Assembly: GCF_001447785.1 (NCBI RefSeq) | Contig: NW_015177015.1 | Span: 458,165 to 522,164 of the forward strand | DNA: 64,000 nt | Direction: 5' to 3' | From: Gekko japonicus | Lineage: Eukaryota | Shown here: positions 4,010 to 41,699 of the stretch, piece after piece | Numbering within the stretch: the stretch's first letter is position 1 | Layout of the letters: the number at the start of each line of letters is the position of its first letter | Notes under the pieces: generated by a model | The model's input: the letters and a program-made list of their open reading frames with translations, nothing else | Told to the model about the DNA's origin: nothing | Databases searched by the model: none | Position numbers and translations under genes: made by a program

Positions 4010-4700
4010 TATGTTATTTATTTACATTATTCATAGCCTGCCTTTCTCACTTGGATTTAAGATGGGATTGCACAGAGTGAGTCAATAAAATTGATGGATG
4101 GGACATTCAGTAAACAGTGCAGTAGGATTTGGGTTGTAGAACCAACCAGAAGTCTAAAAACAGAACTGAAGCAAAGCATAAATATAAAATGTCACATTAA
4201 ATGATGCAAAAATTACACAGTAGGATCCTAGCTTCAGCAAACTATACACAGTAGTATAGACCACAGTCCCTAATAATTTTTCTGAGTAACTTTGTGAATC
4301 ACTTAGTGCAGTGCAACTCTATTGCCTGCATAGAAAAGCCCTCTCGAATAATTTAGTTTTGCATAGTTTGTGGAAAGCCATGAGAGTTGGAGCCTTCCTG
4401 ACCTCACGCACAAGGTGGGGCCCACAACAAAGAAGGCACATGTATGGGCATTTGTTGATTTTGCCCATTTACAGGTTGGCACCTGCAGAAGATCCTGCTC
4501 CAGTTAGCAAAGCTGTCATGGCACACAGTTTTGCAGATATGAAGGACCAAGGCCATGAACGACTTTACATGTGGTAGCATTTATCTTAATTTGAACCCAG
4601 TAACTGACGGGCAGTCAGTGAAGTGCCTGCAGGGTGGGAGTAATATGCATGCTCTGTCTAGCTCCTGATAATAGCCAAGTCTGTAGTTTTCTAAACCGGA
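4010..4700 (-). mobile_element. Degenerate L2-like LINE 3' fragment
   Basis: AT-rich tail followed by sequence resembling the other L2-like copies in the window; boundaries approximate. Confidence 0.45.
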
Positions 4701-8197: not shown

Positions 8198-8521
8198 ATA
8201 AAAACAACAGCAAGTTATTACAACAGTTCAGAAAGTTCTTATAGTATATTTCCTTATTGGAAGCATTGGCATGATCCCAAGAGTCTCCATTGTGTGCTGA
8301 GGGGAAAATGCTGAGGCTGTGTATGTTTGCTTGATTCATCTCATGGGAAGCGTATGCCTGCACATTCATGCAAATGTGCAACTTGCCATAATGTGTGAGC
8401 ATCTTTCACCCAAGCATGCAATAGTCTGGGTCATTCAAAATAAAGGTTTCTCACATTCAACGTCGTCACAGTCTGGCAGTTCCAGTAGATTCAGGTGGCT
8501 AAACGTATTGGTCTGAAGCAG

Positions 8522-11965: not shown

Positions 11966-12756
11966 CTGCAACATGTGTAAAGCAGTCCGTGAAGTACAAG
12001 GATGGTTTTATAGTGAAAGCAGCAGGGAGACAAGAGTTCTGCTGCATTGCCCTGTACTTAGGACACTCAGAATAAAAACACAAAGCCTGAGTGATCCAGT
12101 GGGGAAAGATGTACTCTGCCCCACACATTAAACCAGAATATTCACTAACACAACAAAGAACCCCAGTTCAAAAAAGTAACACTAGTAAATGTAGAAAGGT
12201 TATTTTATGATGAATACAATCCAGTGCCATGGTGGCATGTTGGGTTGGAGAGTATGATATATATTGAAATTTAAGATGGATCTTCACTTCCTATGATACC
12301 TTTTACAAGAAGTACATCTAGACTAAAAGGTGTTCTTGTCACCACTGGTAAGAATTATCTAAGTGGGAGTGGTTTTTTTTTTAAAAAAAATTAGGCATTC
12401 ACTTAATAGGGATAAGAAGTTCTATTCTCCCTCTATTGTATCTGCTTATGTTTATATTATGGATTTATAGAGCTGTTGTAGATTTTCCGGATTGTCTCGC
12501 CATGGTCTTGGCATTGGAGGACCTGACATTTTGCCAGTAGCTGTGACTGGCATCCTCAGAAGTATAACACAGAAAGACGGAGTACTCTGTCAAGGTGAGA
12601 AGAAAAATGGTAGGCATGTAATTTATATCTACTCAGGAAGTTGGGGTAGTGCTGAGTCACCCACCTTCCTGAGTAGATATATAAATTACCTGCCTACCAT
12701 TTTTCTTCTCACCTTGACACAGAGAGTACTCTGTCTTTCCGTGTTATACCTCTGAG

Positions 12757-13290
12757 GATAACAAAGACAAACAACATATTGCTGAACAAGTTCATAATAT
12801 AATGAATAATACAATAAGGATGCTATTTTGATAGTTGTTCTGTTTCAACAGCTGAATACATCAAGAGACCGAAGTCTCAACGCAGGCAGGACGAACCTTC
12901 CCAGGCTTGACTGTCCGTTTCGACCTTACGTCTTTATCAAACGTCAGTTCGTAGAAGTCTGTCTTCAATACATGATTCTCAACAATATGTGCAAAATTTC
13001 AAAGGTGGCTGCTTCAAGCTCTCATGGTATTGAAGCAGCCACCTTTGAAATTTTGCACATATTGTTGAGAATCATGTATTGAAGACAGACTTCTACGAAC
13101 TGACGTTTGATAAAGACGTAAGGTCGAAACGGACAGTCAAGCCTGGGAAGGTTCGTCCTGCCTGCGTTGAGACTTCGGTCTCTTGATGTATTCAGCTGTT
13201 GAAACAAAACAACTATCAAAATAGCATCCTTATTGTATTATTCATTATATTATGAACTTGTTCAGCAATATGTTGTTTGTCTTTGTTATC
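12757..13290. repeat. Near-perfect palindrome: 261-bp arms, 12-nt spacer
   Basis: 12757-13017 is the reverse complement of 13030-13290, with one mismatch seen (12840). Confidence 0.95.
13095..13156 (+). ncRNA. Hammerhead-like motif with U3-A8 core variant (mirror copy on minus strand at ~12891-12952)
   Basis: TTGATAA-A-GAC-gtaag-GTC-GAAAC-ggaca-GTC; distal pairing acgaac/gttcgt; proximal helix I is weak. Confidence 0.5.
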
Positions 13291-13320
13291 TGAATTGCTG
13301 GGTCCTATTTACTCCGTTAT

Positions 13321-13363
13321 ACCTCTGAGGATGCCAGTCACAGCTACTGGTGAAACGTCAGGT
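13321..13363 (+). ncRNA. Minimal type I hammerhead ribozyme (Penelope pLTR type)
   Basis: ACCT-CTGAGGA-T-GCCAGT-cacagct-ACTGGT-GAAA-CG-TC-AGGT: helix I, intact core, helix II, minimal helix III, GUC cleavage triplet. Confidence 0.75.
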
Positions 13364-13459
13364 CCTACAATGCCAAGACCACGGCCAGACAACCCATAAA
13401 ATCTACAACAGCTAATGAACTCTGGCCATGAAAACCTTTGACAACAGATTTATAGAGCA

Positions 13460-14014
13460 CTAGCCTGATACCCATGCTTCGCTACAGTATTTAAGTTCCA
13501 TAAATCCAGTTATAATTCTGATGATGTGAAGTCTGAAATGTAACACTTGTTGTAGGAATTCTAATGGAGAAGACTGTAGTGTAAGAAATGAAGTGAGACA
13601 TACGTACTTCCCCCCCTCTACTGAAGGACCTCTCTCTAGACCACATTGGTGGTTCTGCCCTCCGGTGCTAGGATCACCAGGCTGCTTGATGAGCTCACTC
13701 TGGAGCAGGCCACATAGAACTGTCCATTTAAGAAGCAGTCATCTGTTAAGTCAACTCCTGCTACCTTCCACAAAAGTGATGGCCTCTCTACTTGTGTTCC
13801 TGGATTGTTTTGCTCTGGCAGCCGCATAGGAATCAATGGGGGGAGCACATTTTCCCCCTTTTGACCACTTAGGGGTTGGATTTCTAAAAATCCCTTCTTA
13901 GCAAGCACCTACGCCACGGTAGGAGCGCTCTCCCCGAATTTGGTGTCTGTAGGTCCAGTGGTTTGGCCTGGGCATTGATTTTACAGTGAGGGGACTTTCT
14001 TTTATATATATAGA
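13460..14014 (-). mobile_element. Internally deleted Helitron
   Basis: Minus strand starts TC(tatatatataaaa) and ends CTAG, inserted between A and T with no TSD; carries a RepHel helicase C-terminal remnant GQFYVACSRV...GRTTNVV. Confidence 0.8.
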
Positions 14015-41040: not shown

Positions 41041-41699
41041 TATGTTGTCAAAGGCTTTTACGGCCAGAGTTCATTAGTTGTTGTAGATTTTCCAGGCTGT
41101 ATGGCTGTGGTCTTGGAACTGTAGTACCTGGCGTTTCACCAGCAGCTGTGACTGGCATCCCTAGAGGTATAACACAGAAAGATAGAGTACTCTCTGTGTC
41201 AACATGAGAAGAAAAATGGTAGGCAGGTAATTTCTATCTACTCAGAAAGGTGGGGTCATTATCTTGTAGGAGTTTCCCAGGCTGAGACATGCTAATGGAG
41301 GAGCTTTCTTGAGGAGGTTCTTTTGTATATGCTCTACATCTTACAACAGCACTACAGATGAGATTAAAATTTCAACCGTCAATCTATATGCAAAAGAACC
41401 TCAGGAAAGCTCTACAGATAAGATTAGAATTTCAACAGCCAATCCATATGCAAAAGAACCTCCTCAGGAAAGCTCCTCCATTAGCATGTCACAGCCTGGG
41501 AAACTCCTACAAGATAATGACTCAGCCCTACCCCACCTTCCTGAGTAGATAGAGATTACCTGCCTACCATTTTTCTTTTCACGTTGACACAGAGAGTACT
41601 CTATCTTTCTATGTTATACCTCTGAGGATGCCAGTCACAGCTGCTGGTGAAACGTCAGGTACTACAATGCCAAGACCACAGCCAACATCTACAACAACT
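41041..41699 (-). mobile_element. Non-autonomous Penelope-like element with inverted pLTRs in NDC1 intron 3
   Basis: 12-bp TSD agtgatcttcag (41029-41040 and 41700-41711); ~240-bp inverted arms; same family as 12474-13446. Confidence 0.8.
41617..41661 (+). ncRNA. Minimal type I hammerhead ribozyme (sense to NDC1 pre-mRNA)
   Basis: TACCT-CTGAGGA-T-GCCAGT-cacagct-GCTGGT-GAAA-CG-TC-AGGTA; 5-bp helix I and intact core. Confidence 0.75.

What the first reader, a model, noticed from the sequence alone, without database searches (positions are those of the whole stretch)
12743..13332. Very young 534-bp palindrome inserted into the hammerhead core of another Penelope-like element
Seen: 261-bp arms with one visible mismatch and a 12-nt spacer, plus a ~25-nt unpaired extension. 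It is flanked by a duplication of the host sequence gttatacctctgag(gat) at about 12743-12759 and 13316-13332, which is exactly helix I plus the CUGAGGA core. The duplication regenerated an intact host ribozyme downstream. An inverted repeat with a tail is the known Penelope architecture. Near-perfect long palindromes are usually unstable, which suggests recent activity. Inference: a possibly uncatalogued, active ribozyme-bearing retroelement that might target other pLTRs.
Basis: partly seen in the sequence, partly recalled or inferred. Interest (0 to 1): 0.7.

Follow-up and report, generated by a model that had tools for sequence, protein, structure and literature searches.

The report
Retroelement hot spot in rival's ribozyme
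This mirror-image insertion is a real, recent copy of the spliced front end of a Penelope-type jumping gene; such elements have landed at this exact spot of another family's ribozyme at least 15 times, likely because the spot fits a short mirror-symmetric DNA motif that their cutting enzyme would favour everywhere, not because they seek out ribozymes.

Summary
In detail: 261-nt arms with 1 mismatch, a 17-nt duplication and a tail; an independent run holds the same centre junction. The insert is a spliced retrocopy (two introns removed in both arms) of the 5' leader of a Neptune-type Penelope-like element. Each arm has bases the other lacks, so it was likely reverse-transcribed twice, from both cut ends. 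The host is a dead stub of an abundant Poseidon-type family (4,490 intact sites). The site is a real hot spot: 12 of 33 and 3 of 17 breaks at two adjacent bonds are Penelope-type inserts from several families, against 0 of 87 at five control positions. It is not hammerhead targeting. Only 1 of 68 family copies lies there. Other copies sit in a symmetric motif, TG(T/G)Y-N14-15-R(A/C)CA, which held in two held-out families. The hammerhead core matches it, and so does a non-ribozyme repeat that is hit at a similar rate. The insert's own hammerhead is atypical, and no intact partner of its subfamily was found. Nine literature searches did not show this motif. This scan has noted symmetric Penelope targets before, in other genomes.

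The parts
12462..12473 (+). Left copy of the host element's own 12-nt target duplication
   Evidence: Same 12-mer at 13447-13458
12474..12645 (-). Host (Poseidon-type) inverted arm, with a decayed second hammerhead motif at about 12520-12575
   Evidence: Inverted pairs I2-I4, I7; fold of the host
12660..12759 (+). Host direct arm, 5' part, cut off after the CUGAGGA core
   Evidence: family of 4,490 intact 19-mers
12742..12745 (+). Left half-site of the target motif (TGTT)
   Evidence: Motif from 32 other sites of the family; site weight about 190 times the genome mean
12743..12759 (+). Left copy of the target duplication (14-nt core 12746-12759; 17 nt with tail microhomology)
12760..13029 (-). 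Inverted arm: spliced Neptune 5' leader without tail, running 12 nt (13018-13029) further 5' than the direct arm
13030..13290 (+). Direct arm: spliced Neptune 5' leader (end of exon 1, exon 2, exon 3); splice junctions after 13047 and after 13101
   Evidence: ORF-linked copies carry GT-AG introns at these places (L121: 145 and 92 nt; L104: about 190 and 94 nt)
13101..13139 (+). Hammerhead-like motif of the insert (U3-A8 variant; non-canonical at 16.1 and in helix I); mirror copy at about 12908-12946 on the minus strand
   Evidence: PMC4209133
13291..13315 (+). Tail, on one arm only; it may extend to 13321 by microhomology with the target
   Evidence: Conserved in other copies up to a GTTRTA end
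13316..13332 (+). Right copy of the target duplication (14-nt core 13319-13332)
13321..13363 (+). Host hammerhead motif (helix I ACCT/AGGT, core 13325-13331, the Poseidon start codon in stem II)
   Evidence: layout as in PAc (PMC11167929)
13333..13336 (+). Right half-site of the target motif (GCCA)
13333..13446 (+). Host direct arm, 3' part, and host tail
13447..13458 (+). Right copy of the host's own target duplication

Best explanation
The palindrome is a dead-end, spliced copy of the 5' leader of a Neptune-type Penelope-like retroelement that was likely made when a paired endonuclease cut both strands of a mirror-symmetric DNA motif 14 bases apart and both cut ends primed reverse transcription of the same RNA. 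Shown: both arms lack the two introns of ORF-linked copies; each arm holds element bases that the other lacks; family copies sit in TG(T/G)Y-N14-15-R(A/C)CA; the Poseidon hammerhead site matches this motif and has been hit repeatedly by several families. Inferred: nicks just 5' of R(A/C)CA on each strand leave 14-nt 3' overhangs. One end primes at the tail end (AUA microhomology), the other about 30 nt upstream (AUC microhomology), and the two cDNAs are joined at their far ends. The ribozyme core is a hot spot because about 4,500 conserved copies carry a near-ideal motif, not because a ribozyme is recognised.
For: Splicing. Neptune link: CX2CxxC linker plus GIY-YIG (PMC8557442). Two primings: the tail is on the right arm only and the 12 extra nt are on the left arm only, in inverted sense. 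Inverted arms of other copies also start about 25-45 nt inside the tail end, like the two RT start sites and two-strand extension of PAc (PMC11167929). Motif: 33 sites with 13-19-nt duplications, score 4.75 of 6 (32 sites) against 2.66 +/- 0.18 for random sites under the same frame-picking. Half-site counts are T 54/64, G 60/64, G/T 51/64, Y 60/64. Held-out families scored 6.8 (n=14) and 10.1 bits (n=10) against -6.3 and -8.1 at random. Hot spot: 12 of 33 and 3 of 17 Penelope-type inserts against 0 of 87 at controls. The 17 cases compared have unrelated outer flanks. The tail lies on either side of the same two junctions, so the target sets the nicks. The motif model expects 2-21 hits for 6,000-60,000 insertions; uniform chance expects 0.01-0.1. 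A second hot spot lies in a non-ribozyme repeat: 7 tail junctions at 8,337 sites, against 3-4 at 4,490 hammerhead sites (the patterns are similar but not identical).
Against: No biochemistry was done: nick positions are inferred from duplications that microhomology blurs. The total number of Neptune insertions is only bracketed (6,088 first-look candidates; 0 real matches in 280 kb of sample), so a few-fold extra preference for the hammerhead site cannot be excluded. A weaker predicted site near +45 in the host gave 0 Penelope inserts of 7, where about 2 might be expected. Only 10 of 33 sites meet the strict consensus (26 of 33 match 7 of 8 letters). 35 of 68 tail-bearing copies were left out of the motif (the window itself, and copies with no 13-19-nt duplication at a plausible distance), as were 16 of 30 and 20 of 30 in the held-out families. 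One held-out site scored -21 bits. Four hot-site inserts (L208, L211, L217, L268), two of the +1 inserts (L315, L325) and L221 are Penelope-type by layout only; no ORF link was shown. Published PAc cleavage prefers ATT, but that is a Poseidon enzyme.
Confidence: 0.8

Rival explanations
1. Neptune elements home to the Poseidon hammerhead or pLTR as such (through structure, RNA pairing or selection).
For: At least 15 independent Penelope-type insertions at one or two bonds of the ribozyme core, from several families. The insertion splits the Poseidon start codon and ribozyme core. The host's TGTGTTATA resembles Neptune tail ends.
Against: Only 1 of 68 copies of the window's family is at the site. 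The same motif frames ordinary sites. A non-ribozyme repeat is hit at a similar rate per site. In about half the cases the tail lies at the other junction, so tail homology does not pick the site. Only about 0.3% of host copies are hit.
Confidence: 0.08
2. The palindrome arose by fold-back (self-priming) of one cDNA, or from an antisense template, not from two primings.
For: Self-priming on an antisense template was proposed for head-to-head Penelope palindromes (PMC3846280, passages). The arms are nearly identical.
Against: Fold-back of the tail-primed cDNA would leave the 12-nt loop in direct sense, but it is inverted. Fold-back of the other cDNA could not add the tail. Both arms are spliced, which an antisense template would not be.
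Confidence: 0.07
3. Chance insertion into an abundant repeat, or a fragile site that attracts any insert.
For: The host family is abundant. Three of the 15 foreign inserts at the junction are not Penelope-type or are unassigned, and a few host copies carry local duplications ending there.
Against: 15 of 33 foreign inserts against 0 of 25 at +9 (Fisher p=4e-5) and 1 of 25 at -16. Uniform chance expects at most 0.1. No inverted full host arm was seen at the junction, although the host family is abundant.
Confidence: 0.04
4. Assembly or library artefact.
For: Short-read, fragmented assembly. X1 shows no contigs over parts of the arms, and X2 shows none over the centre.
Against: Exact duplication, tail, motif match and the identical centre contig in X1; dozens of copies with the same layout.
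Confidence: 0.01

Closest known systems
Neptune-clade EN+ Penelope-like elements and the general insertion layout of inverted pLTR + tail + TSD (PMC8557442, PMC3846280; passages read)
   Same: C-terminal GIY-YIG with CX2-5CxxC linker, pLTR with 5'-UTR introns, inverted truncated copy, one-sided tail of 30-40 nt, target duplication.
   Different: Those passages describe variable-length duplications, moderate or microsatellite/AT-rich preferences and intron retention. Here the duplication is narrowly 14-15 nt inside a symmetric motif, and many copies, this one included, are spliced.
PAc, Poseidon of Anolis carolinensis (PMC11167929; parts 1-2 of 4 read)
   Same: Both strands cut and extended, two internal RT start sites bounding the tail, predicted dimer. 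The host element shares its layout (start codon in stem II, tail about 110 nt into the ORF).
   Different: The insert is Neptune-type, its tail lies upstream of the ORF start (L345), it shows 1-6 nt of primer-template microhomology, and its target is a symmetric motif instead of ATT.
Minimal hammerheads of metazoan PLEs, U3-A8 variant (PMC4209133; parts 1-2 of 4 read)
   Same: U3-A8 pair, extra base before stem II, G10.1-C11.1, GAAA, and an intron end next to helix I as in D. virilis.
   Different: G at 16.1 and a broken inner helix I in the minimal register. A related family (L127) has the canonical form, so this one looks degenerate.
Site-specific retroelements (R2-type; 28S-targeting PLE-X of spike mosses, PMC8557442)
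   Same: Repeated insertion at one bond of a multicopy sequence.
   Different: The site takes only about 1-2% of a family's copies; the preference is a short degenerate motif.
Animal non-LTR retrozymes (bioRxiv 10.64898/2026.07.22.740005; part 1 of 5 read)
   Same: Short, non-coding, pLTR-derived, hammerhead-like motif.
   Different: No tandem array here; a single head-to-head insertion.

Membership tests
EN+ Penelope-like element | pLTR linked to an RT + GIY-YIG ORF | tested here: met
   Arms match exons just downstream of GIY-YIG ORF ends (L121 89-96%; PF01541 E=1e-5 for L105). L345 has the tail at both ends of a frame-broken ORF. Pfam gave no RT hit for L345; RT motifs were judged by eye.
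EN+ Penelope-like element | Inverted truncated pLTR plus one-sided tail | tested here: met
EN+ Penelope-like element | Target-site duplication | tested here: met
   17 nt here; 13-19 nt at 33 other sites
EN+ Penelope-like element | Spliceosomal introns in the pLTR/5' UTR | tested here: met
   Two GT-AG introns in ORF-linked copies, absent from this copy
Neptune clade | [quoted passage not shown] | tested here: met
   CGRCAAC and VIYLLICACNLRYVG in L104/L105; feature per PMC8557442, shared with Nematis
Neptune clade | Placement in an RT tree with reference Neptune and Nematis sequences | not tested
   No reference sequences were fetched
Minimal hammerhead (insert) | Core boxes, U3-A8 or C3-G8 pair, bulge, G10.1-C11.1 | tested here: met
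   loop 2 varies while stem II is kept
Minimal hammerhead (insert) | A15.1-U16.1 pair, cleavage triplet and a closed helix I | tested here: not met
   G at 16.1 in the minimal register; the alternative GUC register leaves one pair of helix I; the predicted fold pairs the core with itself, z -0.5
Minimal hammerhead (insert) | Self-cleavage | not testable with these tools
   Needs an in vitro assay, with and without protein
Site-specific (homing) retroelement | Most copies at one target | tested here: not met
   1 of 68 tail-bearing copies at the hammerhead; 1 of 30 laid in each held-out family, and these were the seed copies
Non-LTR retrozyme | Tandem units each with a hammerhead | tested here: not met
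   Single head-to-head insertion
Poseidon clade (host) | RT + GIY-YIG without the cysteine linker; start codon in hammerhead stem II | tested here: met
   ORF ends upstream of longer host copies L215/L225 and an open frame from the stem-II ATG in L191; no tree built

The most novel reading that the evidence does not exclude
Neptune elements parasitise Poseidon elements. The site spans Poseidon's ribozyme core and start codon, so it cannot drift away; Neptune's target motif is tuned to it, and insertion there separates Poseidon's promoter from its ORF, which would be an inter-clade conflict between retroelements.
Probability: 0.08. Interest if true: 0.8.

Novelty: new variant of a known kind. 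Interest (0 to 1): 0.5.

Why it matters
How Penelope-like elements cut and prime their target is still open: only one has been reconstituted, and published accounts speak of loose AT-rich preference, variable duplications and possibly antisense templates. This locus and its relatives give a concrete prediction for Neptune enzymes: a symmetric site TG(T/G)Y-N14-15-R(A/C)CA, a fixed 14-15-nt stagger, and two primings on a spliced sense RNA. This can be tested directly in the existing in vitro system. It also explains why an apparent 'ribozyme-targeting' pattern arises without any targeting of ribozymes, which is a caution for repeat annotation.

Tried and rejected
Rfam at gathering threshold: 0 matches in the window. 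Pfam on the three L345 frames: 0 families. Search for near-identical siblings: the best of 40 scored (of 275 candidates) was 91% over most of the arm, and the exact tail pattern occurs once. Intact autonomous partner of this subfamily: not found; the nearest ORF-linked copies have a stop (L121) or frame breaks (L345), while more distant Neptune families have long open frames. Expression: no RNA holder was listed; in X21 about 1 read and in X23 no read lay on the arms at 99%; this is not used as evidence. Presence/absence: X2 shows no centre contig, but contigs cannot show absence; X22 was read too thinly (about 4%) and X3 does not cover the flank. A predicted second site at -63 in the host came from a deletion in one copy and was dropped. 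The predicted weak site near +45 gave 0 of 7. An ORF link for the L211 family was not shown; its copy in L450 is nested in another Neptune's end. Six host duplications (one of them spurious) were too few for a Poseidon motif. No high-scoring target was found at Neptune's own tail, so self-targeting for tandem formation was not supported. In one search, one of six rows (L017) was taken at wrong coordinates and is ignored. L228 and L216 at the hot junction were ambiguous and were not counted as foreign.

Full report
Observation. The arms (12757-13017, 13030-13290) are 261 nt with one mismatch at 12840. They are followed by a 25-nt tail and framed by an identical 17-nt duplication. The window lies in G000, a 2.49-Gb vertebrate assembly. 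Run X1 holds a 72-nt contig across the centre with no difference, at depth 24 against 75 for a flank contig that differs from the window at 4 letters and 1 gap in 332 nt. The fold-back is therefore real DNA. X2 shows no such contig, which fits polymorphism but does not prove it.

The host. With the insertion removed, 12474-13446 is itself an inverted arm + direct arm + tail with its own 12-nt duplication. Its arms differ at 5 of 94 and 10 of 98 aligned sites, so it is older. The family is abundant: 2,466 first-look candidates and 4,490 exact 19-mers over the site. Longer copies continue upstream into an RT and GIY-YIG end without a cysteine linker, and an open frame starts at the ATG in hammerhead stem II. 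This is the layout of Poseidon PAc (PMC11167929, parts 1-2 of 4 read).

The insert. It belongs to a smaller family (275 candidates; 61 exact tails) with several subfamilies 1-3% divergent within. No copy closer than about 91-93% was found, and its exact tail is unique. Some copies align in three pieces, because they carry two GT-AG introns. These copies follow the stop codon of an ORF with a CX2CxxC linker and a GIY-YIG domain, the Neptune/Nematis signature (PMC8557442, passages). Both arms in the window are spliced at both introns, after 13047 and 13101. Many short copies start at one 5' position, likely the transcript start. In L345 the ORF begins just after the tail. The insert is thus a retrocopy of the spliced 5' leader. 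A rough count over the loci held gave 51 spliced and 30 unspliced arms; this is not a census.

Two primings. The tail is on the right arm only. The 12 'spacer' bases are the left arm continuing further 5', in inverted sense. Neither arm can be a simple copy of the other, so two reverse transcripts are inferred. This fits the two start sites and two-strand extension of PAc. It does not fit self-priming on an antisense template (PMC3846280, passages), which would also keep the introns.

Is the site targeted? A probe for Neptune tails followed by a hammerhead core found a second, independent case from another subfamily with the same junctions (L181). I then scanned the host for breaks, using exact 17-mers followed by two non-host letters. 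At the window's junction, 15 of 33 matches are foreign inserts: 12 Penelope-type and 3 other or unassigned; in 12 the host resumes with a duplication. Seven of the 12 are tied to Neptune ORFs by sequence, five by layout only. One base further, 3 of 17 are Penelope-type. At -16, -2, -1, +9 and +45 there are 0 Penelope-type inserts among 25, 9, 21, 25 and 7 matches; other foreign sequence followed in 1, 3, 2, 0 and 1. The outer flanks of the 17 cases compared are unrelated. The tail lies right in some and left in others, so the target fixes both junctions.

Why this site. Of 68 tail-bearing copies of the window's family, only the window's is at the hammerhead. At 33 other sites with 13-19-nt duplications the flanks are mirror-symmetric: TG(T/G)Y, 14 or 15 bases, R(A/C)CA. 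The score is 4.75 of 6 (32 sites) against 2.66 +/- 0.18 at random, with half-site counts T 54, G 60, G/T 51, Y 60 of 64. The other 35 copies were left out: the window itself, and copies with no such duplication. The fixed matrix scored two held-out families at 6.8 bits (14 of 30 tails usable) and 10.1 bits (10 of 30), against -6.3 and -8.1 at random. The host site TGTT-ATACCTCTGAGGAT-GCCA weighs about 190 times the genome mean and is the best site in the host; the control positions at -16, -2, -1 and +9 weigh under 1. For 6,000-60,000 insertions the motif predicts 2-21 hits and uniform chance 0.01-0.1; 15 were seen. A second abundant repeat without a hammerhead carries the same motif. It has 7 tail junctions at 8,337 exact sites, against 3-4 at 4,490 hammerhead sites by a similar probe. 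Against the model: a weaker site near +45 gave no hit, and only 10 of 33 sites meet the strict consensus.

Ribozymes. The downstream host motif is whole simply because the duplication starts before helix I; it has G10.1-U11.1. The insert's motif has the U3-A8 pair, bulge and G10.1-C11.1 described for minimal Penelope hammerheads (PMC4209133, parts 1-2 of 4). Its stem II is kept across subfamilies while the loop varies. It has G at 16.1 and a broken inner helix I, and folds with the core paired. Activity is doubtful and untested.

Age and activity. One mismatch in 261 points to a young insertion: roughly 0.4-2 My for an assumed rate of 1-5e-9 per site and year, with wide error, and gene conversion could make it look younger. 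Several other copies have arms 97-100% identical. No intact ORF of this subfamily was seen, though related Neptune families have long open frames. Current activity is not shown.

Novelty. The layout is published. A symmetric Neptune target with a fixed stagger, or a hot spot in another clade's hammerhead, did not appear in nine searches of the held library. Subscription papers, Repbase/Dfam and the supplements of the papers cited were not seen and may bear on this. Earlier unreviewed notes of this scan report symmetric Penelope targets, hot spots in other repeats and twin priming in other genomes. The hot spot was found. One note there mentioned a mirror-symmetric target before I derived the motif, and most such notes were read afterwards. 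None of the 8 notes shown of 9 on this genome mentions the hot spot. Verdict: a real and well-supported mechanistic footprint in a known class, interest 0.5.

Noticed in passing
L020, L041, L108, L363, L371, L379, L381, L429, L442, L451: Second Neptune hot spot in an abundant non-ribozyme repeat (8,337 exact 24-mers), used in both orientations; the repeat was not identified.
   Followed up: partly
L227, also L226, L267, L327, L339: Host copies with a bare duplication ending at or next to the hot junction; L227 repeats exactly the 14-nt core with no insert, like a staggered cut that was filled in.
   Followed up: no
L345:2350-5760: Near-full-length Neptune of the window's clade with frame breaks and a tandem triplication of the hammerhead-containing exon at its 3' end.
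   Followed up: partly
L120, L124-L129, L133, L134, L138, L142: Across Neptune families the hammerhead-like motif keeps its boxes and stem II but varies at position 16.1 (U, G or A) and in helix I; only the L127 type is canonical.
   Followed up: partly
L450: Neptune frame of more than 750 residues without a stop after an assembly gap, with a copy of the L211 family nested in its tail region.
   Followed up: partly
L203/L237: Another Penelope-like end joined to the host hammerhead at the same place; the upstream duplication was not found within 10 kb.
   Followed up: partly
L007, L010, L014: Copies sharing one flank each, next to gaps: probably mis-assembled palindromes.
   Followed up: no
window 41043-41254 and 41518-41684: Two more pieces of the same Poseidon-type host family.
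   Followed up: no
window 13460-13800: Further high-copy repeats directly right of the host (very high read depth).
   Followed up: no
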